From Promethearchaeota archaeon (lineage in GTDB: Archaea > Asgardarchaeota > Lokiarchaeia > Sigyniarchaeales > SOKP01), in contig JAHPZJ010000021.1 of the NCBI GenBank assembly GCA_019058245.1, positions 1-17,230 of the forward strand: a stretch of 17,230 nucleotides of DNA. The letters run 5' to 3'. This document shows, in pieces, positions 120 to 16,395 of this stretch. The notes under the pieces were generated by a model. The model saw only the letters and a list, made by a program, of their open reading frames with translations. It was not told the DNA's origin and did no database searches. Each line of letters starts with the position of its first letter. Position 1 is the first letter of the stretch. Made by a program: the position numbers and the translations under genes.

Positions 120-1556
120 ATTATAGAACCTAAAATTGAACCTAAAAAATCTTTTGAAGTCGGAGAACAGTTAAGAAGGTCAAGTTGGAGAAAAAATAAG
201 AAGTATATAAATTATCTTATTAATATTAATATTCTCATATTATCATTAATACTTCTATTAACAGGTCTGCTCAAATTTATTGAGATATATTCAATTAATG
301 ATAATTTAAATTATATTGCAGCACTCTTATCAGATTTGCATGATTGGTCAGGCATCATCCTGGTCTTTTTAATTGTTCTTCATTTATTTCTTCACCGGAA
401 ATGGATTTTGAAAAGTACACGGAATCTTTTTAAGTCCAAGCATTTTAATCGAAGAAAATTAAATTATTCTATTGACATTGGTATGTTAATATCATTTGCT
501 ATAGTTCTAATTACTGGAATCTTAAAAATTCCTTCATTTAACATTATCAGAACATTAAATTACACCTATTCTTCCCGGATAATGATTTTACATGACTGGA
601 GTGGATTAGTTCTTTTAATTTTCATAATTTTTCATATTCTACTACATTTAAAATGGATGACGGTTATGACAAAAAGAATATTTTCTAAAAAAAATGCTCC
701 AAAGTTAATAATAGTTACACTTTCAAATGTAATAATTATAAGTCTTGTATTTCCCTATGGAATCTTTATTCCTACACCAAATGAGCCAACAATTTATATA
801 GGTTTTGAAGAAATTGATAATCTCGATTTCAATGCTGATGAGATTGAATCAAATAGACCAGATTTGTTTAAAAACGGTAGTTTTTCTGTATTTGATATAT
901 TAGTAGATTTTGATAGAAAAGGAAAAATTGATATGCGATATCATTTTGCGTCCGATATGGATACTTATGTGATTGATGCTATAAATGGAATAAAGAATTG
1001 GTGGTATTATGCTTGGTACCATGAAGGATGGCCTGAACCCAATGTATTTCGAATGGATCATTATCCTTATAAGCCAAAAATGAGAATTCAGCTTTATCAA
1101 ACAAGTGAATCACATTTACAAAATATCTATAATAGTTTTCGCAAAGAAATAACAAGATTACATTCAAATAATGGAGATATAATAATACCCGAAGTAATAA
1201 TAAAAACAGAAAGAGATCGTATGTATTTTTATGATGTTAAAGTGGTTCCCTATAATTTAAGAAACGATACATTCCAAGATGATGTAATTACTGCGTTAGA
1301 TGTGATCTTGACTTTAGCAGATGCGGGATTAATATCATATGGAATATATTGGTGCGATAAAATAGGTACAGCTGAATTTAATAGTTATTTTGTGCTATAC
1401 ATTAATGGATCTCATCTAGAGGGAAGGTGTGGATTCGTTTATGAAGAGGGTGATTGGGATTTTGAGGATGTTAAAGGGAACCATATCCATATACCTTCCG
1501 ATATTCGTATATTAACCTCTCCCGAATATGAAAAGTGGTTTTATGGTTGTGTTTGA
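120..1556 (+). CDS. Membrane protein with two DUF4405-like (cytochrome b-like, bis-His) repeats, a further TM helix and a C-terminal soluble region with two possible DUF4430/transcobalamin-beta-like units; true start upstream of 336
   Basis: The frame is open from 114 (after TGA 111-113). Upstream codons read KKYINYLININILILSLILLLTGLLKF...LHDWSG..LHLFLH, matching repeat 2 RRKLNYSIDIGMLISFAIVLITGILKIP...LHDWSG..FHILLH. There is no in-frame ATG/GTG/TTG before 336; candidate starts are ATT120 or ATA123. C-terminal units are SVFDIL..YVIDAING..WWYY and TALDVI..YFVLYING..GFVY. Confidence 0.7.
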   Translation: MIEPKIEPKKSFEVGEQLRRSSWRKNKKYINYLININILILSLILLLTGLLKFIEIYSINDNLNYIAALLSDLHDWSGIILVFLIVLHLFLHRKWILKSTRNLFKSKHFNRRKLNYSIDIGMLISFAIVLITGILKIPSFNIIRTLNYTYSSRIMILHDWSGLVLLIFIIFHILLHLKWMTVMTKRIFSKKNAPKLIIVTLSNVIIISLVFPYGIFIPTPNEPTIYIGFEEIDNLDFNADEIESNRPDLFKNGSFSVFDILVDFDRKGKIDMRYHFASDMDTYVIDAINGIKNWWYYAWYHEGWPEPNVFRMDHYPYKPKMRIQLYQTSESHLQNIYNSFRKEITRLHSNNGDIIIPEVIIKTERDRMYFYDVKVVPYNLRNDTFQDDVITALDVILTLADAGLISYGIYWCDKIGTAEFNSYFVLYINGSHLEGRCGFVYEEGDWDFEDVKGNHIHIPSDIRILTSPEYEKWFYGCV

Positions 1557-1769: not shown

Positions 1770-2792
1770 CTAAAATACCTCCCACTTTCCACATCTACTG
1801 CCCCAACGAGCAATTACTTTATTTTCATCTTGAGGCATTTTAACTTGAACAATTTCACAATTATTTGGACAATCTCCACAATGAAATGTTGAAGTTTTAA
1901 ATTCTATATCTCCTACGTGAAGTCCACGGAATAATGTCTCTGTTGCATTATCTAAGTAATAATCTCTAACTAATATTGCCATTCCTAATGCTCCCATCAG
2001 AACATTATATTTCGGTACAATTACTTTACAACCTAGATGTCTTTCAAAAGCCTGAATTATCCCTTTATTATATGATACTCCACCTTGAAAAACAACTGGT
2101 TCATTTAATTCCTTTCCTTTTGATAAATTGTTCATATAATTTCTAACTAATGAGTCACATAACCCCGCAATAATGTCTTCTCTGGAATATCCCGCATTTT
2201 GTTTATGAATCATGTCTGATTCTGCAAATACAGTACATCTTCCAGCAATACTTACAGGATTTTTTGACCTTATAGCATAATCTCCAAATTGTTCAATTGG
2301 TATTCCTAATCTTGAAGCTTGGTGATCAAGAAATGATCCGGTACCTGCAGCGCATACAGAATTCATTGCAAAATCAACAATTATCCCATCTCTTAAAATA
2401 ATAATTTTTGAATCTTGTCCGCCAATCTCTAAAATTGTACTTACATCTGGATATAAAGATTGTGTCGCTACAGCATGAGCGATAATTTCTGTTTTAGCTA
2501 GATCTCCTCCGACAATCGCTTTTGTTAAGTATCTTGCTGATCCCGTAGTTCCACAACACCGTATGGCATATTCTTGGAGTTCCTCATTCTGTTCAATCTT
2601 TATTCTTAAATCTTCCATACCAGCTTTAGCCGATTCAATAGGAGATCCTCTATTACGTAAAAAAACACTGGTAAGAACACTACCATCAGTATCCATTAAA
2701 ACAAATTTACAGGTAACACTTCCAATATCAATTCCAAGAAAAGCATCCCGCTTCCCATCTTCATTTGCTACTTTATCTGAGACTTGTACTAT
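1770..2792 (-). CDS. Acyl-CoA dehydratase/reductase activase (BcrAD/BadFG, HgdC-like ASKHA ATPase with Fe-S cysteines) with a C-terminal Cys cluster; 340 aa if it starts at ATA 2792
   Basis: Motifs FLGIDIGSVTCK (upstream of ATG 2696), TTGSAR, EIIAHA, EIGGQDSK, MNSVCAAGTGSFL, RCTVFAESD, FQGGVSYN, MGALG, and C-terminal CGDCPNNC...GSRC. Confidence 0.92.
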   Translation of the reverse strand: MVQVSDKVANEDGKRDAFLGIDIGSVTCKFVLMDTDGSVLTSVFLRNRGSPIESAKAGMEDLRIKIEQNEELQEYAIRCCGTTGSARYLTKAIVGGDLAKTEIIAHAVATQSLYPDVSTILEIGGQDSKIIILRDGIIVDFAMNSVCAAGTGSFLDHQASRLGIPIEQFGDYAIRSKNPVSIAGRCTVFAESDMIHKQNAGYSREDIIAGLCDSLVRNYMNNLSKGKELNEPVVFQGGVSYNKGIIQAFERHLGCKVIVPKYNVLMGALGMAILVRDYYLDNATETLFRGLHVGDIEFKTSTFHCGDCPNNCEIVQVKMPQDENKVIARWGSRCGKWEVF

Positions 2793-2798
2793 CTTTTT

Positions 2799-2804
2799 TC
2801 ACCT
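2799..2804 (-). promoter_or_regulatory. Shine-Dalgarno AGGTGA for the activase gene
   Basis: Minus strand reads TGA-AGGTGA-AAAAAG-ATA-GTA-CAA: an archaeal anti-SD match 6 nt before the in-frame ATA. Confidence 0.65.
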
Positions 2805-3992
2805 TCATTTTACCTGTAATAATTGAATACATTCATTATAGAAATTATCTCCATAATGAGGATATATTTTTTTATTGCCATTAGCTTGAAATTCTGCATT
2901 ATTTTTAATTTCTTGCTTACGCCTATCATTTATAAGGTCAACAAAAGCTTCTAAGCGTGTACGAAATCCTTCCATACCAGATTGCTCATCGAATGAGAAA
3001 TATATAATTGGAAGATCATATATTCGTTTTAGTTTATTGGTAATGATTGTTCGTGCCGTTACCTCAGGCATACAGGTGAAAGGGTACGAATGAACAAACC
3101 CGTCGAACCCTGCTTTAGCTTTATCGATGTATTCACCTAGTACCCACACACATTCCCCTCCAATATCCATAGGGACATAAGGATGGGATAAATGTTCTAA
3201 CCATTTTCTATGATAATTCAAGTGAAATTTATGAACCACCCAGTCGTATAGACTTAAAGATTGATGAATTTCGATCCCCATTTCACCTAATTTACGTCGA
3301 ATATCAAGATTTACATATGGTTCTAAACTAACATGAATTTCACCAGAAAGACCAACTCGTAAAGGACTTATAGTTTTATCCATATCAAGATTATTAAAAT
3401 CTTCTTTTATAACGTTTTTAAAATTTCTTAATCCTTTGAGATTATTTGTTTGATCAAGTTTATCTAATAAATTTTTGACTATAATTGTGGTATCTCCTTG
3501 ATTTCGTTCATATGCACGAAATAAACCTTCTGCAGTTTGAATATCATTTAATAATTTTGCTTTTTTCAAGAAAAATATAACTGCTTTCACATATTTTGAA
3601 TAAGCAAATAATCCATGTTTACCACTAACTTCTTGAAGTGTCTCGAGCCATCGAAACTCGAGAAGATCTGCCTGGTCCAAGGGGATTACACGTACATTCT
3701 TATAACCCATATCATGTAAAATGCGTTCTTGCACAGCATGATAAAACCCAAAACGACATGGACCACAATCTATTGCCATTACGAGTGTGTCGGCTCCCTT
3801 CTTAATAGCACTTACAAAATCTCCAAGAGTAGCTTTAAATGGAAAACAAACAAATTCTGGGCTATATTTTACTCCGATTTTGATAGCTTCCCGATTAGTA
3901 GGATCAGCTAATACTACTTTTATATCAAGTTGTTCAAACAGTGTTTTGAAGGCATAAATACTGCGACCCATATTTGGGAATGAGAGAATCAT
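2805..3992 (-). CDS. COG3581-type / PlsR-like 2-hydroxyacyl-CoA dehydratase-family Fe-S subunit
   Basis: Motifs SFPNMG, SPEFVCFPFK, DCGPCRFGFY, GEIHV, IGGE, PFTCMPE, FDEQSG..GFRTRLEAF. RBS GAGGAG at 4004-4009. Adjacent to the activase. Confidence 0.88.
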   Translation of the reverse strand: MILSFPNMGRSIYAFKTLFEQLDIKVVLADPTNREAIKIGVKYSPEFVCFPFKATLGDFVSAIKKGADTLVMAIDCGPCRFGFYHAVQERILHDMGYKNVRVIPLDQADLLEFRWLETLQEVSGKHGLFAYSKYVKAVIFFLKKAKLLNDIQTAEGLFRAYERNQGDTTIIVKNLLDKLDQTNNLKGLRNFKNVIKEDFNNLDMDKTISPLRVGLSGEIHVSLEPYVNLDIRRKLGEMGIEIHQSLSLYDWVVHKFHLNYHRKWLEHLSHPYVPMDIGGECVWVLGEYIDKAKAGFDGFVHSYPFTCMPEVTARTIITNKLKRIYDLPIIYFSFDEQSGMEGFRTRLEAFVDLINDRRKQEIKNNAEFQANGNKKIYPHYGDNFYNECIQLLQVK

Positions 3993-5413: not shown

Positions 5414-5788
5414 ATGAGCAAAATCGAAGAAGTAACAAAAATACTTCAAGAACTTGAAGATAAAGTATCTGATATTATAGGTTCAGCAGTTATCCGAACA
5501 AATGGATTAGTAATTGCTTCCGCATTGCCAGGTGAATCAAATGAAAGAATGATTGCAGCAATGTCAGCAGCTCTCTTAGGTACATCTAAAAGGTCTGCAG
5601 AAGCGCTTTTTAATGGAAGTTTTAAAAGTCTAAACTTAGAATTAGATAAAGGAAATATGTTCTTAATCGGTGCTGGACGTGTAATATTAGTGGCAATTAC
5701 ACAAAAAGAACCCAATATTGGGTTAGTTACTTTAGAAATGGAGGACACAAGTAAAAAGATAGATGATATTTTCAAAGTTGAGGAGTGA
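5414..5788 (+). CDS. Roadblock/LC7 (MglB/LAMTOR-like) domain protein
   Basis: Canonical pattern L..L....DIIGSAVIRTNGLVIAS...IAAMSAALL...A..L..G......LE...G......AG...L.......NIGLV..EM. Confidence 0.93.
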   Translation: MSKIEEVTKILQELEDKVSDIIGSAVIRTNGLVIASALPGESNERMIAAMSAALLGTSKRSAEALFNGSFKSLNLELDKGNMFLIGAGRVILVAITQKEPNIGLVTLEMEDTSKKIDDIFKVEE

Positions 5789-5795
5789 GAATATA

Positions 5796-6266
5796 TTGAG
5801 TGAAAGATTGAAACAAAGGTTAAAACAATTAAAATTCATCTCTTCAATGTTTAATATGGCAATGGATGAATTTGATAATGTGATGGGTCCAGAGACAATT
5901 CAAACGATTTTCCGGTTAATTGGAGAGCGTCAAGGAGAAGCAATGGAAGAAAGATTACGTAACAAATATGGAATTGATAATTGGACTTCGGAACTATTCG
6001 CTGAGAAACTAACAAAAGATGTAATTGATGCAGCAGTAGGAACAGGGACTTCAGAAATAAAAATTAATGGCAATGAATTATCAGTTATAGTTAAAGATTG
6101 TCCATTTAAAAGAGCTGGAATAAAAATAAGTAATAAATTTTATTGTACTTACACCGAGGGATTAATTGAAACTTTTGCAAAAAAAGCACTAAATATTAAT
6201 GAATTTAAGAGTATAAAATTACGAGCTGTAGATAATTGTGATTGTAGCTTCCTTCTAAAAGTATAA
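5796..6266 (+). CDS. V4R / methanogen output domain 1 / TRAPP-Bet3-like fold protein, probably Zn-binding
   Basis: Helical N-half (MGPETIQTIFRLIGERQGE) followed by DCPF...YCTYTEGLIETF...NCDCSF, the V4R-type Cys pattern. TTG 5796 follows the RBS GAGGAGTGA, which overlaps the roadblock stop. Confidence 0.8.
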   Translation: MSERLKQRLKQLKFISSMFNMAMDEFDNVMGPETIQTIFRLIGERQGEAMEERLRNKYGIDNWTSELFAEKLTKDVIDAAVGTGTSEIKINGNELSVIVKDCPFKRAGIKISNKFYCTYTEGLIETFAKKALNINEFKSIKLRAVDNCDCSFLLKV

Positions 6267-6340
6267 AAATTTTTATACTTTAACAATAAATCTTTATTAA
6301 ATAATTTTTTTTAATGTATTATTTAATATTTTGTTTGATA

Positions 6341-7069
6341 ATGATTCTTTCAATCCTAATCTTAAAAAGAACCGGTGAAAATCTCTGCAGCAGAACTTTT
6401 GGAACTGAAAAGTGGAGTGAAACATTAACAAGTGGATTTATTTCTGCGACTTTTAACTTTACTCAACAGACATTCGGTTCTGAAATTAATGATATTGAAT
6501 TAGGACCATATCGATTATTATTTGAACCTACTGAGGATATTATTATTGTTGCTTTCTATGAAAAAACTGATAGTATTATTAATATTAAGAAGAAATTGAA
6601 TGAATTAAAAGAAATTATCTATTCAAAATATGATAATGTATTAAAAAATAAGATCTGTAGTCATGAAGATTTTGAAGGATTAAACGAGATAATTGATAGA
6701 ATAATCACAGAATCTTCTGAAATTGATATTACAGAGCAATTAAAATTACAATATAAAAATATTTTGGATAGTTTTCGTTCAAATGCAGAAATTTTAGATT
6801 GTGATCTAATAACAAGTTCTGGAGTTCCTTTAACAAAAGAATGGAACAAGGAATTTTTGGATCTCTGCCTAAGAATCATAGATGCATTTTGGAAATCAAA
6901 ACATTATGTATTAGATCAAATTATTCTCACCTATGAGACACGTCATTTAATTTTGTATAAAATAAATGATAATTTTGTTTTATCAGCACTTATTAGGAGA
7001 AACACACCAATCGGATTAGCAACATACATGGTTGAAGAAACTTCCAATATTATTGCAAAAGTTAATTAG
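6341..7069 (+). CDS. Longin-like domain fused to a C-terminal roadblock domain
   Basis: The N-half MILSILILKRTGENLCSRTF..LTSGFISATFNF..INDIELGPYRLLF..IIIVAF..LNELKEII has longin topology. The C-half ILDCDLITSSGVPL...QIILTY..LILYKINDNFVLSALIRRNTPIGLA has roadblock topology. ATG 6341 fits the domain start better than 6314. Confidence 0.75.
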   Translation: MILSILILKRTGENLCSRTFGTEKWSETLTSGFISATFNFTQQTFGSEINDIELGPYRLLFEPTEDIIIVAFYEKTDSIINIKKKLNELKEIIYSKYDNVLKNKICSHEDFEGLNEIIDRIITESSEIDITEQLKLQYKNILDSFRSNAEILDCDLITSSGVPLTKEWNKEFLDLCLRIIDAFWKSKHYVLDQIILTYETRHLILYKINDNFVLSALIRRNTPIGLATYMVEETSNIIAKVN

Positions 7070-7103
7070 AATGTAAAATAGGAAAGAGTTTGAAAAAATA
7101 ATA

Positions 7104-7511
7104 ATGGGAATTTTATCAAAAATATTTGGAAAAAAAGAACAGGCAAGCATCCAAGAAATAGAATCAGATATGGCAAAATTAAAGAAAAAAATTAATGCTG
7201 AAATGATTGCTATTTTTGGAATTGGAGGAAGATTAAAAGGATTACCATTAATTTATGTATGTGAAGATGATACTGATTTGAAACAATTCTCAGCAAGATT
7301 ATATGAAGTAATTGGACCTCTCGATAAATTAGCGAATGAAAGAATATTACGGGATTTTATAATTAATTATAGCGATTCAATTCTGTTTTATAAACGAATT
7401 ATGAAGAATATTGGATATTTCGCAATATTCTATAATAAAAATGCTCTCTTGAATATTAAGCAATGGATTTATAAAAAAGAAGAAATCCTGAAACAATTAC
7501 TCCATGATTAA
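7104..7511 (+). CDS. Divergent roadblock/profilin-like fold protein with an N-terminal amphipathic helix
   Basis: N-terminus MGILSKIFGKK, then an alpha-beta-beta-alpha-beta-beta-beta-alpha pattern (AEMIAIFG..GLPLIY..helix..RDFIINY..ILFYK..IGYFAIF..helix). Confidence 0.6.
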   Translation: MGILSKIFGKKEQASIQEIESDMAKLKKKINAEMIAIFGIGGRLKGLPLIYVCEDDTDLKQFSARLYEVIGPLDKLANERILRDFIINYSDSILFYKRIMKNIGYFAIFYNKNALLNIKQWIYKKEEILKQLLHD

Positions 7512-7515
7512 AGTA

Positions 7516-7525
7516 TTTTTTTTTT
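7516..7525 (+). terminator. Oligo-T archaeal-type terminator
   Basis: T10 tract 4 nt after the stop at 7511. Confidence 0.55.
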
Positions 7526-7640: not shown

Positions 7641-9050
7641 TTGAGTTCAAAGCCAAAAAAAGAAAAGAAAAAAGACAAAAAGAAAAATTTATTGGTAAAA
7701 AAAGAAAAGAAAGATGCTAAGGATCAACAGAAACCAAACAAATCTGACATTCTTTCTAAATTAGATGAATTAGATAGTTTTAGTGAAGAAGAAACTCGTG
7801 CTACTGAAGAAATTTTAAGAAAAGGATTAACAGAAAGTAAATCGACGGAAACTGAAGAGGATTCCAAGAAAATTGAGATAAATATTAGTAACATAAAAAA
7901 TGAAATAGAAAAACTAAAGGATATCAAACAAAAATATTATGACAATGGTGAAAACGACAAAACCTTAGAAATAAGCAAAAAAATCATAGATCTTGCTACT
8001 AAACATAATATGGCATTTGCAGCTACTGAAGAGAAGAAATTTTTTGATCAATTGCAAAATAAAATCAATGATTCTTCAACGAAGCTTATTAGGGAAAATA
8101 TTGATAATCTAAAAAAAATAAGACATAATCATTATACTCAAGAACGATACGACAACGCCATATTAGTATCAAAACAAATAATAGATTTAGCTATAAAAGA
8201 CAGTTTGATTGCAATTAAAAAGGAAGAAGAAAAATGGTTATCTTTAATGCAAGATAAAATTGAGGCACAAACTTCTGAACTCAATAGATTAGAAGCTCTT
8301 AAACTTAAAATTGCTAAGCAGAGTCAAATAAATCAAGATATTGTAGAGGAAAAAGCTAATATTGAATTCGATAACAAAAAGCTTGTTAGTAATAATATTA
8401 CAACAAACTCAAAACAAAAGTCTGAAGTTATAACTAAAGAGTTTAAAGCAGTAAAAGATGAATTTGAAGAAGAAAAGCTAAAATTTGAAGAGGAAAAGCT
8501 AAAATTTCAAGAAGAAAAAGAGTTATTAAAATGGGAAAGACAGATGATTGAAGAAGTAAAGCTTAGATTTGAACAGGATAAATTAAAAGACAATGAGATA
8601 GTCGGAGAAATTAAACTGGATTCAGAATCAACTATGAATGAAAATATAGAGAAGGATAGGGAAGAAAAACTAATAATTGGAGAACAGAAAAAGTTACTTG
8701 AACAAGAGAAAAAAAATTTTTTAGTAATGGGTGAACAATTTAAGCAATTAAGGATGAAATTTGAAGAAGAGAAAAAAGTATTTGATCAAAAAGTAGCTAA
8801 ATTTGAAGAAGAAAAAGAAATTTTGAATGAAAAAAAACTTAATTTTGAAGAAGAACGAGAAAAGTTTAAAGAAGAAAAATTAAACCTTGAAGAACAGAAA
8901 AAAATATTTGAAGAAAATTGGTTGAACTTCGAGGAGGAAAAAATTAAGCTCAAACAAGAACAAGAACAATTTGGAGAACAAAAAAAATTATTTAAGTGGG
9001 AACAGCAGATGTTTGAAGAACTAAAAAATTATGAGAAAGAAAATGACTGA
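7641..9050 (+). CDS. Highly charged coiled-coil protein with a Lys-rich N-terminus, two helical (TPR-like) repeats and FEEEK heptad arrays
   Basis: KPKKEKKKDKKK start. A ~63-aa duplicated unit (IEKLKDIKQKYY..ISKKIIDLA.. / IDNLKKIRHNHY..VSKQIIDLA..). Many FEEEKLK-like heptads. Motif LLKWERQMIEEVK / LFKWEQQMFEELK occurs twice. Confidence 0.8.
   Translation: MSSKPKKEKKKDKKKNLLVKKEKKDAKDQQKPNKSDILSKLDELDSFSEEETRATEEILRKGLTESKSTETEEDSKKIEINISNIKNEIEKLKDIKQKYYDNGENDKTLEISKKIIDLATKHNMAFAATEEKKFFDQLQNKINDSSTKLIRENIDNLKKIRHNHYTQERYDNAILVSKQIIDLAIKDSLIAIKKEEEKWLSLMQDKIEAQTSELNRLEALKLKIAKQSQINQDIVEEKANIEFDNKKLVSNNITTNSKQKSEVITKEFKAVKDEFEEEKLKFEEEKLKFQEEKELLKWERQMIEEVKLRFEQDKLKDNEIVGEIKLDSESTMNENIEKDREEKLIIGEQKKLLEQEKKNFLVMGEQFKQLRMKFEEEKKVFDQKVAKFEEEKEILNEKKLNFEEEREKFKEEKLNLEEQKKIFEENWLNFEEEKIKLKQEQEQFGEQKKLFKWEQQMFEELKNYEKEND
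8463..8520 (+). repeat. Intragenic 21-bp tandem repeat (about 2.7 copies) encoding FEEEKLK heptads
   Basis: tttgaagaagaaaagctaaaa / tttgaagaggaaaagctaaaa / tttcaagaagaaaaag. Confidence 0.8.
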
Positions 9051-9228: not shown

Positions 9229-10716
9229 TTGATTGACTTTACAAATTTAGGAGCTCCACATGAATTTTGGGAGTATTTTTATCAGATCTCAAAAATTCCA
9301 AGATGTTCTAAGCATGAAGAAAAACTTAGAAATTTTATTAAAGAGGAAGCAGAAAAATATGGATTTGAAAAAAAAATTGATGAAATAGGAAATATTGTAG
9401 TAAAAATTCCAGCTGCAAATCAAAAATTAAAATGTATTTTACAAAGCCACATGGATATGGTTTGTGAGAAAAATGAAGCAACAATACATGATTTTTCAAA
9501 AAATTCATTAAAGTTAAAAATCATTGATATTGATAATGAAAAATGGATTACTGCTGAAGGTACAACATTAGGTGCGGATAATGGAGTAGGAGTGTGCTAT
9601 TTATTAACTATAATGAAAAAAATTCATCAGGATGAATTAAAGTTCAATTCATTAGGATTAGATCTATTATTCACTGTTCGTGAAGAATATGATATGGCTG
9701 GAGCACAAAATGTGAATTCAAGATTTGTTAATGGGAATTATTTAATAAATCTCGATTCAGCTCGACAAGCATTGACAATAGGATGTGCAGGAGGTATTGG
9801 ATTTCATACTAGGATTAAATGTGAAAGTATCTTCATAAATCGAGATCAATTAACTCTTATCCCTATTAATATTTCCATTTTTGGATTAGTTGGTGGACAC
9901 TCAGGAGGATGCAATAGGGGTCAAGCACATGCAATTATTATTCTGAGTCAAATTCTATGGAATTTGAATAAGAAATATCCAATTTTTATTAGTAAAATAC
10001 ATGGAGGTGATGCGGCAAATGCTATTCCTAGAGAAGCGTATTCAATTATATTTATTGAGCAGAACCATTTCGAACAAATAAGAATGTACATCTGTAAAAT
10101 TTTCAGCGAAATTAAAACTCTTTTTGATGGAATCGAAAAAAATATGGAAATTAGTATAAAGAAATTAGAAGGATTCTCAAGTAATAAGGTTTTTCCCAAA
10201 AGTGTTCAAGATAAATTACTAAATCTTTTATATATTTTTCCTAATGGTCCTATTGCCTATCATCCAAAGATAAAAGATTTGATGTTTACTTCAACAAATT
10301 TAGGAAAAATAAGAACTAAAGAGGATCATATTAAACTAAGATGGTTACACAGAAGCCTAAGTGAGTATTATAACTATGATATTTACGAACAAATTTTAAG
10401 CTTATTAGAATTATCTGGTCTTAAAAAAGAAAATACATTTCGTAATAGTTATCCTCCATGGGAACCAAATTTTAATTCTAAACTCTTGAAAATCGCCAAA
10501 GACTGTAATAGGAAATTGTATAAAGAAGAAATAGATATTAAAATAGTTCATGGAGGATTGGAAGCCACACTATTAATAAATAAAATTCCTAAAATTGATG
10601 CAATAGCATTTGGAGCCTACTTAGAAGCACCTCATTCCCCAGATGAGCGCCTAAAGATTAAATCAGTTGAAAAAGCTTGGAATTTTCTAATATATTTACT
10701 TCAAAATTTAAAGTAA
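9229..10716 (+). CDS. pepD: Aminoacyl-histidine (beta-Ala-His) dipeptidase, peptidase M20C
   Basis: Motifs KIPRCSKHE, LQSHMDMVCEK, GTTLGADNGVG, FTVREE, NLDS, GGHSG, NAIPRE, STNLG, YPPWEP, HGGLE, HSPDE; 495 aa. Confidence 0.92.
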   Translation: MIDFTNLGAPHEFWEYFYQISKIPRCSKHEEKLRNFIKEEAEKYGFEKKIDEIGNIVVKIPAANQKLKCILQSHMDMVCEKNEATIHDFSKNSLKLKIIDIDNEKWITAEGTTLGADNGVGVCYLLTIMKKIHQDELKFNSLGLDLLFTVREEYDMAGAQNVNSRFVNGNYLINLDSARQALTIGCAGGIGFHTRIKCESIFINRDQLTLIPINISIFGLVGGHSGGCNRGQAHAIIILSQILWNLNKKYPIFISKIHGGDAANAIPREAYSIIFIEQNHFEQIRMYICKIFSEIKTLFDGIEKNMEISIKKLEGFSSNKVFPKSVQDKLLNLLYIFPNGPIAYHPKIKDLMFTSTNLGKIRTKEDHIKLRWLHRSLSEYYNYDIYEQILSLLELSGLKKENTFRNSYPPWEPNFNSKLLKIAKDCNRKLYKEEIDIKIVHGGLEATLLINKIPKIDAIAFGAYLEAPHSPDERLKIKSVEKAWNFLIYLLQNLK

Positions 10717-10732
10717 TTATAGAGGTAATAAA

Positions 10733-11458
10733 ATGGAAAATAGTTTAAAAATAGCCATTATTTCAGATATTCATGCAAATAAATATGCTCTAGAAGAATT
10801 TCTTAACTACATCGAAGAAAATTTTAATGCGGATAAAATCTTAAATCTAGGAGACTTTGTTCACATTGGACCACACCCAAAGGAAGTTGCAAAAATAATA
10901 TTCAATGATATACGATTTGAAAATATTATTGGTAATAATGAAATGATTCTATTAGGAAGACATGAACAAAATAAAGGAGCAGAACTCCATATTAAATGGA
11001 CAAAAGATCAGCTTGGAGATAAACTTCTTAAAGAAATTCAGAATATTCCAATTTCAAAAACACTTACAATCGAAGGGCAAAAAATTTTGATGATTCATTC
11101 ACATTTTTATGATACTCCAGGACGTTCAATTCAAGACAATCTCTTACTCTACGAAGGGAAAACTTTGAACGAATTTCTGGATGACTATCCTAAAGAAGTT
11201 AGTATTGTTTTAGTTGGTCATTCCCATGAACAATTGTATATCTCATGGAAAGGGAAAATAATCATAAATCCTGGTTCGATCAGTATTACTTGGAAACCAA
11301 AGATTTCATTTTGTCTAATGGAAATCAATTCTTCAAATAACATAAATTTAGAATTTAAAAATATTCCTTACGATACCTCAAAATTAAAAGATGACTATAA
11401 GTTAAGAGATGTTCCAGAAAAAGATTTCATAATAAAGTATTTTTACCCCTTTCTCTAA
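10733..11458 (+). CDS. Calcineurin-like metallophosphoesterase (YfcE/MJ0936 family)
   Basis: Motifs ISDIHAN, LGDFV, GNNE, MIHS, GHSH, NPGS. RBS GAGGT upstream. Confidence 0.9.
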   Translation: MENSLKIAIISDIHANKYALEEFLNYIEENFNADKILNLGDFVHIGPHPKEVAKIIFNDIRFENIIGNNEMILLGRHEQNKGAELHIKWTKDQLGDKLLKEIQNIPISKTLTIEGQKILMIHSHFYDTPGRSIQDNLLLYEGKTLNEFLDDYPKEVSIVLVGHSHEQLYISWKGKIIINPGSISITWKPKISFCLMEINSSNNINLEFKNIPYDTSKLKDDYKLRDVPEKDFIIKYFYPFL

Positions 11459-11468
11459 AAGTAATAAA

Positions 11469-11477
11469 TTTTTTTTT
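11469..11477 (+). terminator. Possible oligo-T terminator
   Basis: T9 tract 10 nt after the stop at 11458. Confidence 0.35.
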
Positions 11478-11498
11478 GTTCCAATTCTCTAGATCAAT

Positions 11499-12005
11499 AT
11501 GGAAATTACAAAAAGAGAATTAATTAATTTTAAGGATAGGAATTTCCCTAAACAAATATGTTTTAAACCAATTGGTATAATACATACTCCATTTAAAACT
11601 ATTAAAGGTATTCCTATTCAGTCATCAATGTCAAATCAAAAGGGTACTATTGAAATTTTTCCAGAATATAAATCTGGTTTAAAAGATTTGTTCGAGTTTT
11701 CTCATCTTTATTGCCTCTATTTTTTTGATATGGTAAAATTGCCTGTTCCACTTCAATCAAAACCTTTTTTGGACAACAAAATAAAAGGAGTTTTTGCTAT
11801 TCGAACACCATTTCGTCCAAATCCTATAGGTATTTCAATTCTTCAAATTTTAAATGTTGAAGAGAATAAAATTGAAGTTAATAATGTTGATATTCTAGAT
11901 TATACTCCCATCTTGGATATCAAACCTTTTGTATCTGAGTTTGATAACGTAAAAACACATAAGATTGGTTGGTTAAAAGACAGAATTAAGTATAAAATAA
12001 GCTGA
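11499..12005 (+). CDS. trmO: tRNA t6A37 N6-methyltransferase TrmO (TsaA/YaeB family)
   Basis: Motifs FKPIGIIHTPFK, GLKDL..FSHL, GVFAIRTPFRPNPIGIS, DILDYTPILDIKPF, GWL. Confidence 0.9.
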   Translation: MEITKRELINFKDRNFPKQICFKPIGIIHTPFKTIKGIPIQSSMSNQKGTIEIFPEYKSGLKDLFEFSHLYCLYFFDMVKLPVPLQSKPFLDNKIKGVFAIRTPFRPNPIGISILQILNVEENKIEVNNVDILDYTPILDIKPFVSEFDNVKTHKIGWLKDRIKYKIS

Positions 12006-12010
12006 AAGCT

Positions 12011-13435
12011 TTATTTAAGTTTTATATCTAAATTCAAATTTTTTTGAATTAATTGACTGTTTTTCTCATTGCGAAGCCTTTTTGCTTGAATAGCAATGGT
12101 TTCAAGAAGCCTACGTTGATTTGTTGATATCCAAGGGCCTTCACAATCAATTGCAGCATAAGGAATCTCACTTTTATTGGCTAGAGGTCGTATTATAGCT
12201 TGAGAGTTCATAGCGGGTTGGCAATTGAAAGTTCCTAAATTAATTAAACCGTCATAAATCCCCTCTTTGATCGAATGTACATATCTCCCAGTTACTAAAG
12301 GAGTTTCAGTACAACTGCTTAAAGAGACATATTTATTTCCTTCATGAAATAGATCGATAATGTCGATAAAAGGATCAAATAACAATTTTGATTTTTTCAT
12401 GAGCCTTCTAAACATCTTTAATTGTGAAATTAGAAAATTGAAAGTATTCTTATTTCTTTTTACTCGAATTACTTCCTTTCGCTCAATTTCACTCAAACCA
12501 TCAGTTTTGAGTAATTCATCTTTAAATTGATCTTTTGGATTAATGTATCCTTTTTTAAATCCAAACCGTATAGTACTTTCAGCTAATATTAAACTCATAG
12601 TTTCCACAATATCTACAACTTTTGTAATAATTCCTCTTTCAAGGAAAAATTCCTCTACTGGATAATGATCAAACATCAAATTTAAACCACCAAAAATTAG
12701 AACTTTTGGTGTTTCTTCAACTGTTGATTTAAGAGGGATTTTACTAATTTCTCTAGCCCATTTTAATAAAGATGTATTTATTGTCTTCTTCCCTTCTCTT
12801 ATGTTTTCAAATAAACTATTTGTCAATTCCTCAAATTTTTCTAAAGCTTCGTTTTTATTCTCAGCAACGCATTGTAAGGCATTTCTTGCTTCGGTTATAT
12901 ATTCCCCTAATACAAAATATACATTTTCCCACGCTATTAAATCAGAATTTAATCCCAAGTATTTATTCGTATATTTTGGGAATACGCCAAATATAGCGTT
13001 ATTTAAATTTAATCTCTTTGCAAATGTTTCCCAAAGAACGGGCCATGCCCCATTTTGGCATGGACCATGTTGATCTATAGGAATTCGATAAATAGTTATT
13101 TCATTTTCATCTCTATAATCATTTATATCCTTTAAAACAGCTCCTGCTATAGCAAAACTTGGAAGACATTCTCGTCCAGAACACATATTTTTAGCATATT
13201 GTAAAATTGATGCATCAGTTTCTCTGCTTATTCTGATATTTCTATTATATTTTTTAAATAAATCTATTACAAGTCGCCGTCCATAATAGTTTCGAGGTTC
13301 TGGATTTACATATACTATTCTAGGGTCATTAAAATCAACTTTCTGACCATCACTGTCAATAATAAATCTAAAATCTTCTGAAAATTGAGCTTGTCTAAAC
13401 TCTTTTAATTTTTCTACTTGTTTTATTTCAGTCAT
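12011..13435 (-). CDS. PlsR-like / COG3581 2-hydroxyacyl-CoA dehydratase-family Fe-S subunit (partner of the 985-aa gene)
   Basis: Motifs CSGRECLP, GPCQNGAW, ETPLVTG, YDGLINLGTFNCQP, IDCEG, RLLETI. It starts 2 nt after the upstream stop. Confidence 0.8.
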   Translation of the reverse strand: MTEIKQVEKLKEFRQAQFSEDFRFIIDSDGQKVDFNDPRIVYVNPEPRNYYGRRLVIDLFKKYNRNIRISRETDASILQYAKNMCSGRECLPSFAIAGAVLKDINDYRDENEITIYRIPIDQHGPCQNGAWPVLWETFAKRLNLNNAIFGVFPKYTNKYLGLNSDLIAWENVYFVLGEYITEARNALQCVAENKNEALEKFEELTNSLFENIREGKKTINTSLLKWAREISKIPLKSTVEETPKVLIFGGLNLMFDHYPVEEFFLERGIITKVVDIVETMSLILAESTIRFGFKKGYINPKDQFKDELLKTDGLSEIERKEVIRVKRNKNTFNFLISQLKMFRRLMKKSKLLFDPFIDIIDLFHEGNKYVSLSSCTETPLVTGRYVHSIKEGIYDGLINLGTFNCQPAMNSQAIIRPLANKSEIPYAAIDCEGPWISTNQRRLLETIAIQAKRLRNEKNSQLIQKNLNLDIKLK

Positions 13436-13437
13436 TT

Positions 13438-16395
13438 TTACATCGCAATATTCTGCATTAATATTTTTTTAACATTCTTATTAGAATTTCGATGTCGTTC
13501 TTCAATGATATCTAAAAAAGCACCAACTCTGGTTTCAAAACCCGCATGGGCTGTATGAGAATCTATTTCAAGATAACAAAATACATGGCCTTCTAATTGT
13601 TGTCGAAAATAATGATACATTGTGCCATCAGGACCACACGAAAAGCAAGATACAAAACAAATATATAAATTAGGATTTTCTTTCACATGCTTAACCGCAT
13701 TCTCAATTTGTTGGGTAAGATTCCATACATTCCTTGAAATTGATTGTCCTTTATTTAATAAAGGTAACAAATCAGATGGAATTGCATTATATCCTCTACT
13801 CACAATTTTACGGGGAAGTGCTATATTTATATCTGTAGGATAAACAACATAAGGTCTACCTGCAATAATTACTGATGGTTTTTTTAATAAATCTTTTAAT
13901 GTATTTTTCCCATACTCATAATATCTTTCTTTATACTTTTTATAATGAGATAACGCCGCTTTTCCGGCATTAATACCTACTTCTTCTTCTAATCCTAATA
14001 AGCAAGCAATTTTTCCAAATTCTTTTAAGGTTGTTTCTATAAGGTCGTCCGTAAGTCCTATATGAGGGGACAATATCTTTTCACTTTCATTTTCAAAGGC
14101 TGCACGGATAATGTCAGGAATACTTGCTGTGGAAGGACAAGTGTAACCATGAATATATCCTGATGGGATTTCCAATTCAACTACATAAGGCAAGAAAATA
14201 TAATCTACATTTTGATTAATTAGATCATTTACAGCCCCATGAACTAGTTCACCTGGATAACAAATAGGTGCAATTGTCTTTGTATTTCCTAATTTCGAAG
14301 GATTTGATAAAATAACATTGTATCCAAGCTCATTGATGAATTTAGTATATAATGGGAAAAGAATATGAGATGTTAAAGCCATTGGTAAACCTATTGTTCC
14401 TCGAGCATTCTTTAAAGTAATAGCACTAAATTCCTCAAACATTATCTTATTTCTTACTTCTATGATATCCTGACCTTCCTCTATTTCCACACCTTTTTGA
14501 CGCAGTAATTTATATTTAGAGCATAAACCACCAAAAGGATAAACTTTTCCTCTAATTAAGATTCTTTCAATTTCACAATTATTTTCACACGCCTTACATC
14601 TAAAAGTATCTTTAATTTGTATTTCTCCTTTTATTAAGTTTTTAAGATTATAATCTCTTTCAGAAATGATATTATTTTTCAGTAGATCTTTTGTCATAAG
14701 TGCTGTACCTACTGCCCCCATAAGTTCAGGATGTGCTGGCACTATCACTTTTCGCTGTGAACGAGCTGCTATAGCTAATGCGACTGATTTATTAAGAGCA
14801 ACACCTCCAAGAAAAAGAAGATTCTCTCCTATGTGACGGGGGCCTACAATACGAGAAATATAATTATCTGCAATTGAATAAACTAAACCAGCAACCACAT
14901 CTCCTATTTTAGCTCCTTGCTGAAGGGCATTTCTCAAATCGGTATTAATAAAAGCAGCACATCGCTCTCCAAATGCAATTGGGTGAGTGCTATTTATAGC
15001 AATATCACTTATATCCTCTACCTTTATACCCATATCAACTGATGCAGATTCTTCAAGAAAACTTCCTGTACCCGCAGAACATCCCTCGTTCATCGCATAA
15101 TCAATAGGAACGCCTTTAAGAAATGAGATGAATTTTGAATCTTGACCTCCAATTTCAAACACAGTATCAACATTTGAAACCTCTTCAGTAGCAGCTCTAG
15201 CGTGTGTTAAAATTTCATTAAAACTCCTACAGTTATCTAGATAAACAGAAACCATCTCTCTGGCGGACCCACTTACCCCGCATTGAATTAATTTGATAGA
15301 TCTATTACCTACTTGTTTTATAAGACTATCGATACATTGTTTAGTTGCTAAAATGGGATTTCCTAACGTTCTTAAATAAACACTTGCATCTACTGAACAA
15401 GTTGATGTGTTAAACAATACAGCTTTGGTTGTGGTAGAACCAGCATCTATTCCAAGAATATATTTAACTCCCTCTTTTACTCTCCTCTCATTATCTACAT
15501 TAACCCGATAATCTAAAAGAGATTCGGATTGTGTGAGGGGTTCATGAGTCTGAAATTCAATTTTTAAAGGTTTAAGCCAATCTTTAGCATTTTTGGAATT
15601 TTTTTGTAATTCAGATGCAAATATAGAGGCACCAAATGCTTCTAAGTATGGACTTTCAGGCAATACCTTAATTTCTGAATTGGGTAAAAACCTGGATAAA
15701 TTTTCAATGAATACTTTATTTTGAGTTACTCCACCTGAAACCACTACTAACTTTGTAGGCCATTGAGCGGTTTGTATCATTTCACTAACTTTTCTTGCTA
15801 AATCGTTTATTAACGTTTTAACAATATCTTTGGGTTCACATTCACCCTTGTTAAGTTTATGAGTAGCATCTGATTTACAATGAACAGAACATCTAGTCGC
15901 TAACTGAGTAAACTCACCCTCTTTACTAATTTTAATTCCTTCTTCTATGGATAATCCCATTCTTTGAAGTTGTTGTACAATGAATTCACCAGTACCTGCA
16001 GCGCATTTTGAAGTAGAGATAATATTTTTTATTATTCCATTTTTTATTGGATAAACACTAAAAGTCTCTCCACCAAGAGATAATAGAATATCCGGTTGTA
16101 AATTGTAAAATGAGAGTACTTTTTCTAAGCATTCTATCTCTGAAATATATGGAAAATTAAGAAAACTCCCTGTAGCTTGTCCCGTTATAACAATTTTTGA
16201 ATTTTCATCAACATTATATTTTTTAAATATCTCTAATATCTTCTTTTTAGGATACCCTTCATGACGTATTACCTCACTCGCTATTACGCCATTGGTACTT
16301 TTACGAACCCACTTTACAGAGACTGCTCCAATTTCTAAACCTTCAAAATATTGAAGTTCCCTATTAGTTGCGCTAGCAAGACTCCTATCTGGCAT
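13438..16395 (-). CDS. PlsA-like protein: two tandem BcrAD/BadFG activase domains, a Cys cluster and a DUF2229 (COG3580) domain
   Basis: Domain 1: GLEIGAVSVK, LGGET, KCAAGTGEF, RCSVHCKSD. Domain 2: LGIDAGSTTTK, EIGGQDSK, MNEGCSAGTGSFL, RCAAF, GGVALN. Then CKACENNC..GGLC, followed by ICYP, YTCP, GRPY, FSCGPD, EIDSHTAHAGFETRVGAF. Confidence 0.92.
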   Translation of the reverse strand: MPDRSLASATNRELQYFEGLEIGAVSVKWVRKSTNGVIASEVIRHEGYPKKKILEIFKKYNVDENSKIVITGQATGSFLNFPYISEIECLEKVLSFYNLQPDILLSLGGETFSVYPIKNGIIKNIISTSKCAAGTGEFIVQQLQRMGLSIEEGIKISKEGEFTQLATRCSVHCKSDATHKLNKGECEPKDIVKTLINDLARKVSEMIQTAQWPTKLVVVSGGVTQNKVFIENLSRFLPNSEIKVLPESPYLEAFGASIFASELQKNSKNAKDWLKPLKIEFQTHEPLTQSESLLDYRVNVDNERRVKEGVKYILGIDAGSTTTKAVLFNTSTCSVDASVYLRTLGNPILATKQCIDSLIKQVGNRSIKLIQCGVSGSAREMVSVYLDNCRSFNEILTHARAATEEVSNVDTVFEIGGQDSKFISFLKGVPIDYAMNEGCSAGTGSFLEESASVDMGIKVEDISDIAINSTHPIAFGERCAAFINTDLRNALQQGAKIGDVVAGLVYSIADNYISRIVGPRHIGENLLFLGGVALNKSVALAIAARSQRKVIVPAHPELMGAVGTALMTKDLLKNNIISERDYNLKNLIKGEIQIKDTFRCKACENNCEIERILIRGKVYPFGGLCSKYKLLRQKGVEIEEGQDIIEVRNKIMFEEFSAITLKNARGTIGLPMALTSHILFPLYTKFINELGYNVILSNPSKLGNTKTIAPICYPGELVHGAVNDLINQNVDYIFLPYVVELEIPSGYIHGYTCPSTASIPDIIRAAFENESEKILSPHIGLTDDLIETTLKEFGKIACLLGLEEEVGINAGKAALSHYKKYKERYYEYGKNTLKDLLKKPSVIIAGRPYVVYPTDINIALPRKIVSRGYNAIPSDLLPLLNKGQSISRNVWNLTQQIENAVKHVKENPNLYICFVSCFSCGPDGTMYHYFRQQLEGHVFCYLEIDSHTAHAGFETRVGAFLDIIEERHRNSNKNVKKILMQNIAM

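What the first reader, a model, noticed from the sequence alone, without database searches (positions are those of the whole stretch)
5414..7511. GTPase-less roadblock / V4R(Bet3-like) / longin-roadblock / roadblock cluster: candidate proto-TRAPP/Ragulator-like complex
Seen: four closely spaced co-oriented genes ending in a T10 tract, together giving three roadblock-type domains, one longin-like domain and one V4R-type Cys domain, with no P-loop GTPase in the window. Known: eukaryotic TRAPP is built from Bet3-fold (V4R-related) and longin subunits, Ragulator from roadblock heterodimers, and both regulate small GTPases; Asgard archaea encode each domain type. Inference: these four genes form one heteromeric GEF/GAP or scaffold combining both architectures, with the longin-roadblock fusion as a bridge, acting on a GTPase encoded elsewhere.
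Basis: partly seen in the sequence, partly recalled or inferred. Interest (0 to 1): 0.8.

Follow-up and report, generated by a model that had tools for sequence, protein, structure and literature searches.

The report
Asgard roadblock-V4R-longin GTPase-regulator gene cassette
Four neighbouring genes in this Loki-type Asgard archaeon travel together through about 30 related genomes and encode look-alikes of the platforms that control small GTPase switches plus an exchangeable sensor-fold protein; a sister version of the cassette carries the GTPase gene itself, which names a concrete switch-regulator set to test, but it looks more like a sensor-gated prokaryotic switch than an ancestral TRAPP complex.

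Summary
Observation confirmed. A (roadblock), B (V4R fold, three invariant Cys), C (longin plus roadblock) and D (divergent roadblock, amphipathic N-terminus) stay clustered in about 30 of 161 Loki-class genomes, including cultured Lokiarchaeum ossiferum. The scan found this same module before on other DNA (e.g. e1-5519188, e1-5470831, e1-5393399). No paper found describes it.

Added here: (1) it behaves as two pairs, A-B and C-D. A-B is duplicated, separated or kept alone, and the recurring T-tract follows B, not D. (2) B's nearest relatives are MetOD1-type sensor domains; it lacks the Bet3 C-terminal tail that gives TRAPP its GEF activity. (3) D-family genes mark two sister cassettes in which the V4R gene is swapped; one reads roadblock - XylR_N/V4R - D-like - Ras GTPase (three genomes, four more contigs). 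(4) 'No GTPase in the window' is uninformative: 82% of windows this size lack one.

Best reading (0.5): a V4R-sensor-gated roadblock/longin platform regulating a Ras-like GTPase encoded elsewhere. It works like MglB or Mon1-type platforms and is not a member of TRAPP or Ragulator. Binding, ligand and target are all inferred.

The parts
5414..5788 (+). A: canonical roadblock/LC7 (MglB-like) protein, 124 aa, the most conserved gene of the cassette
   Evidence: Pfam PF03259 E 2.4e-11; phmmer E 1e-11 to 1e-12 to Asgard roadblocks 9JUE, 7F8M, 7YH1; mean column identity 71% over 36 homologues
5796..6266 (+). B: stand-alone V4R-fold protein of MetOD1/ATC-hydrolase type, 156 aa, Cys102/117/150 invariant (probable metal site, inferred), Gly43-x3-Gly47 kept
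   Evidence: MetOD1 in 37/38 members (best 8e-11), TRAPP in 2/38 (0.04); model pLDDT 92; fold searches; conservation
6305..6312 (+). T8 tract in the 74-bp B-C spacer; candidate terminator/attenuator dividing A-B from C-D
   Evidence: sequence; T>=6 in 21/33 and T>=8 in 11/33 homologous spacers against 34% and 13% background (kin not independent); also T7-T10 at the same place in most type II cassettes
6341..7069 (+). C: longin (1-126) fused to roadblock (about 132-242), 242 aa; architecture of LD1-LD2 of tri-longin Rab GEF subunits
   Evidence: Gly12 and Gly32 align with Mon1 glycines whose double mutants lose GEF activity
7104..7511 (+). D: divergent roadblock, 135 aa, with a basic amphipathic N-terminal helix (candidate membrane anchor) and a conserved G-x-x-G-R-L-K-G-L-P-L loop; family confined to the Loki class and almost always in roadblock-V4R cassettes
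   Evidence: hhalign 86%; Atlas neighbours include Robl_LC7 clusters; UniRef names the L. ossiferum orthologue Roadblock/LAMTOR2; hydrophobic moment mean 0.51, charge +1.7, modest (top 5% of genome N-termini with charge); distribution
7516..7525 (+). T10 tract after D, plausible terminator in this genome, not conserved in homologues

Best explanation
A mobile, dispensable signalling cassette of Loki-class Asgard archaea that builds a sensor-gated platform for a small Ras-like GTPase. Step 1 (shown): the genes encode a roadblock, a V4R-fold protein, a longin-roadblock fusion and a D-type roadblock, inherited together as two pairs. Step 2 (inferred from family knowledge and from the swap of V4R subfamilies between sister cassettes): B is the input, a dimeric metal-stabilised domain that binds a small ligand and signals to its coupled roadblock A. 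Step 3 (inferred from established longin/roadblock behaviour): A, D and C's roadblock pair into dimers and C's longin offers a Mon1-like GTPase-binding face; D's amphipathic helix holds the assembly at the membrane. Step 4 (inferred from the sister cassette with the GTPase in C's slot): the output is the nucleotide state or localisation of a Ras/Rab-like GTPase; here it is one of at least 41 such GTPases encoded elsewhere, recruited through C. Whether the effect is GAP-like (as MglB) or GEF-like (as Mon1-Ccz1) is open; I lean slightly to a localising/GEF-type platform because C has the Mon1 glycines and no GP motif in its first loop.
For: Gene order kept in changing flanks across Lokiarchaeales and Helarchaeales; roadblock directly upstream of B in 68 of 74 evaluable loci, median gap 7 bp; B and D co-occur in 30 of 32 B-positive genomes of 161; C orthologue kept on another contig in G069 after leaving the cluster. 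Sister cassette type II: roadblock - XylR_N+V4R (both over Pfam cut-off) - D-like - Ras GTPase (E 1e-24 to 1e-26), gaps -4 to 4 bp between D-like and GTPase, in G039, G072, G036 (two families) and contigs L201-L204; its D-like genes score E 2e-9 to 3e-19 with a model built only from type I D, the next roadblock of this genome 2e-4. Type III: roadblock - divergent B-like (hhalign 89%, N-terminal half) - longin - D-like. B's remote relatives are fused or adjacent to ArsR HTH regulators and histidine kinases. Longin/roadblock dimers are general GTPase platforms (PMC3747258).
Against: The type I cassette never has a conserved GTPase neighbour, and this genome has no full-length orthologue of the type II GTPase. 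Head roadblocks of types I-III are not resolved as one clade (p-AU 0.35), so the sisters may be partly convergent. B stands alone in Freyarchaeota-type genomes, so it can work without A. Type II rests on 3 genomes and 4-5 contigs that may be related. Linked genes are gained and lost together, so co-occurrence is not independent of linkage. Roadblock and longin domains also have GTPase-independent roles (PMC10933270). MetOD1 has been suggested to be an enzyme (PMC5847659).
Confidence: 0.5

Rival explanations
1. Proto-TRAPP/Ragulator: B is a structural Bet3-like dimer that docks on C's longin as Bet3 does on Bet5, with A, D and C's roadblock forming Ragulator-like heterodimers in one stable GEF complex.
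For: B's fold is as close to TRAPPC3/C5 as to DmpR; best PDB sequence hit of B's profile is Thor TRAPPC3, though only E 0.19; all three cassette types with a longin keep V4R and longin together, and Jordarchaeales A-B has a convergent Sybindin-like longin; a Heimdall longin-TRAPPC3 fusion is known (PMC10933270); duplicated A-B gives diverged B paralogues, as Bet3/Trs33.
Against: B ends 4-9 residues after its last Cys with no extended tail, whereas TRAPP's GEF activity comes from the extended Bet3 C-terminus; B is MetOD1-type by sequence and predicted shape; B's tight neighbour is the roadblock A, not the longin; C is absent from or replaced in many clusters; the V4R slot is filled by a XylR-type sensor in type II.
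Confidence: 0.2
2. Two loosely co-regulated pairs: A-B (sensor plus roadblock) and C-D (a split tri-longin-like membrane adaptor) act in one pathway but do not form one stable four-protein complex.
For: T-tract between B and C; A-B duplicated in four genomes, separated from C-D by insertions in three (one a DDE transposase), kept alone in Jordarchaeales; C-D or D-C always adjacent; C slot filled by two different paralogue clades. This is a variant of the best explanation differing only in assembly.
Against: A-B-D without C and A-B-C without D also occur, so the pairs are not strict; all three cassette types join a roadblock-V4R pair to a D gene; D almost never occurs without them.
Confidence: 0.2
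3. GTPase-independent role: B is a small-molecule enzyme or sensor (MetOD1/ATC-hydrolase type) and the roadblock/longin proteins scaffold another NTPase, kinase or cytoskeletal partner.
For: No GTPase linked to type I; ATC_hydrolase hits in 29/38 B members; enzyme suggestion for MetOD1.
Against: GTPase coupled to the D-like gene in type II; Mon1-like glycines in C invariant in 21/21; no enzyme or kinase gene recurs next to the cassette except a divergent DUF3604 gene in part of one family.
Confidence: 0.1

Closest known systems
MglA-MglB (Myxococcus, Thermus) and actinobacterial conservon CvnA-D
   Same: Roadblock protein heading a compact cassette; sensor input plus roadblock plus small Ras-like GTPase (realised in cis in the type II sister cassette); mobile, patchy operon.
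   Different: Input is a stand-alone V4R domain, not a histidine kinase; three roadblocks and a longin; no GTPase in type I; the type II GTPase is Ras-type (Pfam Ras far above Arf) with an extra N-terminal Loki domain.
Tri-longin Rab GEF subunits (Mon1-Ccz1, Fuzzy-Inturned, HPS1-HPS4)
   Same: C has LD1 longin followed by LD2 roadblock (PMC6864590); best structural and HMM matches of C's longin are CPLANE and Mon1; glycines equivalent to Mon1 G232 and G250 kept.
   Different: No third domain in C (D may supply it in trans); no second longin subunit in most cassettes; Glu instead of Mon1's Lys after the first Gly; no V4R subunit in these GEFs.
TRAPP core (TRAPPC3/5/6 plus TRAPPC1/2/4) and Thor-TRAPPC3 (PDB 7YH2, 7YH3)
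   Same: Co-encoded Bet3/V4R fold and longin fold; Cys cluster as in archaeal TRAPPC3/V4R proteins; first Gly doublet kept.
   Different: B is MetOD1-type, three conserved Cys, second Gly doublet incomplete, no C-terminal GEF tail; one longin only; roadblocks are not TRAPP subunits.
Ragulator (LAMTOR1-5)
   Same: Several roadblocks, one with a candidate membrane anchor.
   Different: Three full-length roadblocks rather than two long and two short; no LAMTOR1-like extended scaffold or N-terminal Cys; no Rag GTPase linked.
MetOD1 / XylR-DmpR V4R sensor domains
   Same: Fold, three-Cys cluster, nearest sequence relatives.
   Different: Stand-alone and coupled to a roadblock instead of an HTH, receiver or kinase; ligand unknown.

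Membership tests
Roadblock/LC7 (A) | Pfam PF03259 above cut-off, full-length with both terminal helices | tested here: met
   43.7 bits vs 23; aligns over 7-119 with 9JUE
Roadblock/LC7 (D and C C-terminal half) | profile match over the whole roadblock domain | tested here: met
   C 97%, D 86% with controls under 2%; no Pfam hit; D not folded
Longin (C N-terminal half) | [quoted passage not shown] | tested here: met
   DSSP order; Z 12-16 to longins; Fuz_longin_1 in 12/34 members
V4R/Bet3 superfamily (B) | helical layer on four-stranded sheet, Cys cluster, Gly doublets | tested here: met
   second Gly doublet only half present
TRAPPC3/Bet3 subunit | closer to TRAPP (PF04051) than to other V4R families | tested here: not met
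   MetOD1 37/38 (8e-11) vs TRAPP 2/38 (0.04); nearest relatives MetOD1-type; fold Z-scores tied and so not discriminating
TRAPP GEF core | extended Bet3 C-terminus that enters the longin-GTPase interface | tested here: not met
   B ends at its last strand in all 38 homologues; feature from PMC3747258
TRAPP GEF core | longin heterodimer (C1/C4) | tested here: inconclusive
   one longin per cassette; a second longin-roadblock paralogue lies inside the cluster, inverted, in one genus and elsewhere in this genome; homodimer possible
TRAPP GEF core | Bet3-fold subunit binds the longin; GEF activity on a Rab | not testable with these tools
   needs biochemistry
Ragulator | two long plus two short roadblocks held by a lipidated LAMTOR1 scaffold | tested here: not met
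   three full-length roadblocks; D N-terminus has Gly2 in 19/29 but no Cys; no scaffold gene recurs
Ragulator | Rag GTPase heterodimer as partner | tested here: inconclusive
   none linked; roadblock/longin-GTPase fusions exist elsewhere in the genome
Tri-longin Rab GEF | LD1 longin + LD2 roadblock + LD3 in one chain | tested here: not met
   C has two domains (242 aa); D is a separate gene in every locus read
Tri-longin Rab GEF | alpha1-face glycines needed for exchange | tested here: met
   Gly12 34/34, Gly32 21/21 in the C clade; mapped through Drosophila Mon1 by the 18-residue spacing of G232/G250; small residues here are common in longins, so weak
FLCN/NPRL2/SMCR8 GAP longins | GP motif in the first loop and arginine finger | tested here: not met
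   C's first loop is K-R-S/T-G-E; motif from PMC12290439; arginine finger not mapped
MglA-MglB / conservon operon | small GTPase gene in the operon | tested here: not met
   absent from type I; present in the type II sister cassette

The most novel reading that the evidence does not exclude
The four proteins form one stable membrane-anchored complex in which a V4R/Bet3-fold dimer contacts a Mon1-like longin-roadblock plus separate roadblocks and acts as a ligand-gated GEF for a Rab-like GTPase: a living archaeal intermediate joining the building plans of TRAPP and tri-longin/Ragulator GEFs, with C+D as a split tri-longin subunit.
Probability: 0.2. Interest if true: 0.85.

Novelty: new variant of a known kind. 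Interest (0 to 1): 0.6.

Why it matters
Asgard archaea carry dozens of small GTPases, roadblocks and longins, but Tran et al. 2024 (PMC10933270) note that genome layout rarely says which regulator serves which GTPase. This cassette family names partner sets, is present in cultured Lokiarchaeum ossiferum (NEF87_003731-003733 plus the adjacent roadblock) and in Ca. Harpocratesius repetitus (MCF2138678-81), and its type II form puts roadblock, V4R sensor, D-type roadblock and a Ras GTPase in four touching genes, so a GAP/GEF assay can be set up without guessing the target. The swap of V4R subfamilies suggests the Bet3 fold met GTPase platforms first as a ligand sensor, a testable route to TRAPP.

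Tried and rejected
Complex prediction of A with B, 1:1, with alignments: verdict 'no answer', score 0.16 against a mark of 0.32, controls not folded; no evidence either way. No RNA holder listed for the stretch. Searches for longer, fused forms of B and of D found none; the tool calls this weak. Pfam TRAPP finds nothing in this 76%-complete genome. Direct A-versus-D profile comparison was weak (3%) until a diverse roadblock profile was used. HMM searches of B and D against PDB gave no significant hit. Sigma-70 promoter scan equals shuffles and does not suit archaea; no conserved promoter motif seen by eye in spacers. Tree of head roadblocks unresolved. GTPases near type I clusters (L067, L075, L117, L119) rejected as conserved partners: opposite or distant, single genus, and expected by chance. 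XylR_N/V4R homologues outside the three type II genomes mostly have unrelated neighbours. Literature searches with fold terms and with L. ossiferum / H. repetitus accessions found no description of the cassette; the library lacks most subscription papers. Small-share sequencing runs not used.

Full report
1. Observation. The window is the whole 17,230-bp contig C21 of a 3.09-Mb, 76%-complete genome; the closest named loci are Promethearchaeota (Loki-type Asgard) MAGs. Four co-oriented genes lie at 5414-5788 (A), 5796-6266 (B), 6341-7069 (C) and 7104-7511 (D), gaps 7, 74 and 34 bp, followed by T10 at 7516-7525. The domain reading holds. A is a roadblock. B folds confidently (pLDDT 92) into the V4R/Bet3 fold; TRAPPC5, DmpR and BcsD tie at Z 11.8-12.6 and Thor TRAPPC3 scores 9.8. 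C begins with a longin (Z 16.4 to a CPLANE chain; Mon1 E 2e-4) and ends with a roadblock. D is a divergent roadblock (hhalign 86%, E 5e-6, reversed and shuffled controls under 2%) with a modestly amphipathic, basic N-terminus kept across homologues. The absence of a GTPase says little: 82% of 17-kb windows of this genome have no GTPase-motif ORF although it encodes at least 41 Ras-like GTPases and about 60 longin/roadblock ORFs.

2. Conservation. B orthologues occur in 32 of 161 class genomes, D orthologues in 31 with strong scores; 30 genomes have both. The order A-B-C-D (Lokiarchaeales family f1, Helarchaeales) or A-B-D-C (families f2-f4, including Ca. Harpocratesius repetitus and Lokiarchaeum ossiferum) is kept in unrelated flanks. 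Distribution is patchy (5 of 53 in the own genus). One same-genus genome with the same flanks holds an A'/D' remnant joined at an 11-bp repeat shared by A and D, so loss by deletion happens and the cassette is dispensable. The C clade of family f1 groups with Helarchaeales rather than with f2-f4, which use a different longin-roadblock paralogue; transfer or hidden paralogy, not tested further.

3. Two pairs. A roadblock lies directly upstream of B in 68 of 74 evaluable loci, median gap 7 bp; the exceptions are a distant Freyarchaeota/Jordarchaeia clade in which B stands alone. A-B is duplicated in four genomes, split from C-D by insertions in three, and kept without C-D in Jordarchaeales, where a Sybindin-like longin lies convergently nearby. 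The B-C spacer (median 63 bp) carries T>=6 in 21 of 33 loci against 34% background, A-B never, and the end of D only at background rate (relatives are not independent). A-B-D without C also occurs; in G069 the C orthologue is kept on another contig, in G056 none was found.

4. What B is. By Pfam B is MetOD1 (37/38) and ATC_hydrolase-like (29/38), hardly TRAPP (2/38). Its nearest predicted shapes and sequences outside the family are MetOD1 domains alone or fused to ArsR-type HTH regulators and histidine kinases. MetOD1 shares a three-Cys cluster with phenol-sensing V4R domains (PMC5847659); B keeps three Cys in 38 of 38 and a near-invariant Glu121. TRAPP's exchange activity comes from the extended Bet3 C-terminus (PMC3747258); B ends at its last strand.

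5. Sister cassettes, the main addition. Weaker D matches led to two further cassette types. Type II: roadblock - XylR_N+V4R - D-like - Ras-family GTPase with an N-terminal Loki domain, in three genomes of two families and four further contigs (one with an assembly gap in the V4R gene), plus one partial. It has the same punctuation as type I: roadblock and V4R touching, a longer and mostly T-rich spacer, then D-like with the GTPase, usually within 6 bp. Type III: roadblock - divergent B-like - lone longin - D-like in two genomes. The D-like genes are true D-family members, the family is confined to the Loki class (36/161; 0/239 other Asgard genomes), and only one stand-alone copy was seen (L161). 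So the constant frame is roadblock + V4R + D; the V4R subfamily is exchangeable, and the fourth slot holds a longin-roadblock, a longin or a GTPase. Most type II D-like proteins lack the amphipathic N-terminus. A look-up with type II proteins returned no earlier scan note on them.

6. Mechanism. Longin/roadblock dimers are general platforms for small GTPases. C has the LD1-LD2 order of tri-longin Rab GEFs (PMC6864590) and keeps glycines equivalent to Mon1 G232 and G250, whose double mutants lose exchange activity (PMC5216073), and lacks the GP motif of GAP longins. I therefore read the cassette as a V4R-sensor-gated roadblock/longin platform, anchored by D, acting on a Ras-like GTPase encoded elsewhere (0.5). 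Shown: genes, folds, linkage, the GTPase-bearing sister. Inferred: every physical contact, the ligand, membrane binding, the target and the direction of regulation. Rivals: proto-TRAPP geometry (0.2), two separately acting pairs (0.2), GTPase-independent role (0.1).

7. Known and new. Each domain type is known in Asgard archaea, including crystal structures of roadblocks, Thor TRAPPC3 and a Heimdall longin-TRAPPC3 fusion; the same paper says MK-D1 GTPase genes are generally not in operons with these regulators (PMC10933270). I found no paper on this cassette. The scan has reported the type I module several times on other genomes, and unchecked notes describe V4R-roadblock-GTPase operons in Anaerolineae and Thermoplasmata; if right, the pairing is a wider prokaryotic theme rather than an Asgard invention. 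In this genome a separate V4R gene sits between two Ras-like GTPases. It works like MglB/Mon1-type platforms; it fails defining tests for TRAPP, Ragulator and tri-longin GEF membership.

8. Verdict. Real, conserved, undescribed combination; new variant of a known kind; interest 0.6. The proto-TRAPP label is premature; the type II sister cassette is the quickest route to a decisive assay.

Noticed in passing
L163:2821-5343, L164:2686-5072, L165:3114-5436, L201-L205: Type II sister cassette: roadblock, XylR_N/V4R sensor, D-like roadblock, Ras GTPase with N-terminal Loki domain; L202 has a second Arf/Rag-like GTPase directly after it, L165 and L201 have further GTPases close by.
   Followed up: yes
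L160:2261-4217, L162:1767-3914: Type III sister cassette: roadblock, 196-aa divergent V4R-like protein with insertions, lone longin, D-like; G039 carries both type II and III.
   Followed up: partly
L143:797-2843 (G000:C31:24533-26579): Own genome: co-oriented Ras-like GTPase, thioredoxin-like CxxC protein, V4R protein, Ras-like GTPase, followed by a TBP-like gene.
   Followed up: partly
L167:4193-4570 (G024:C5): Deletion remnant of the cassette, A N-terminus joined to D C-terminus at an 11-bp repeat present in both genes; flanks match the window.
   Followed up: yes
L075:7754-8524, L083:6341-7114, L117, L122, L125: In one genus a different longin-roadblock paralogue lies inverted between B and D; the same clade fills the C slot in families f2-f4 and stands alone in this genome (G000:C8:56999-57757). 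Candidate longin partner of C.
   Followed up: partly
L003-L020: A third longin-roadblock paralogue is nearly universal in the genus at a fixed place beside translation-factor-like genes; longin-roadblock fusions as such are common in Lokis.
   Followed up: no
L089-L093: Jordarchaeales keep A-B, then an 83-97-aa unknown gene in some, then a convergent Sybindin-like lone longin.
   Followed up: partly
L148:2221-6128 (G000:C14): 170-aa and 490-aa genes (the latter with an amphipathic-looking N-terminus, no Pfam hit) near a roadblock; unexplained.
   Followed up: no
window 7641-9050 (+): 469-aa Lys/Glu-rich coiled-coil protein with heptad-like repeats, no Pfam hit; follows D only in close relatives.
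   Followed up: no
window 1770-3992 and 12011-16395 (-): Two sets of genes that by sequence look like CoA-dehydratase activator (BadF/BadG/BcrA/BcrD-type ATPase) and partner subunits; from reading only, not scanned.
   Followed up: no
window 336-1556 (+), 9229-12005 (+): DUF4405/cytochrome-b-like membrane protein with a long unknown C-terminal part; M20 peptidase, metallophosphoesterase-like gene and TrmO-like gene.
   Followed up: no
L075:4766-6670, L077:4780-6669 and others: A 630-aa DUF3604 gene is divergently upstream of A in several genera of family f1; probably old synteny.
   Followed up: partly
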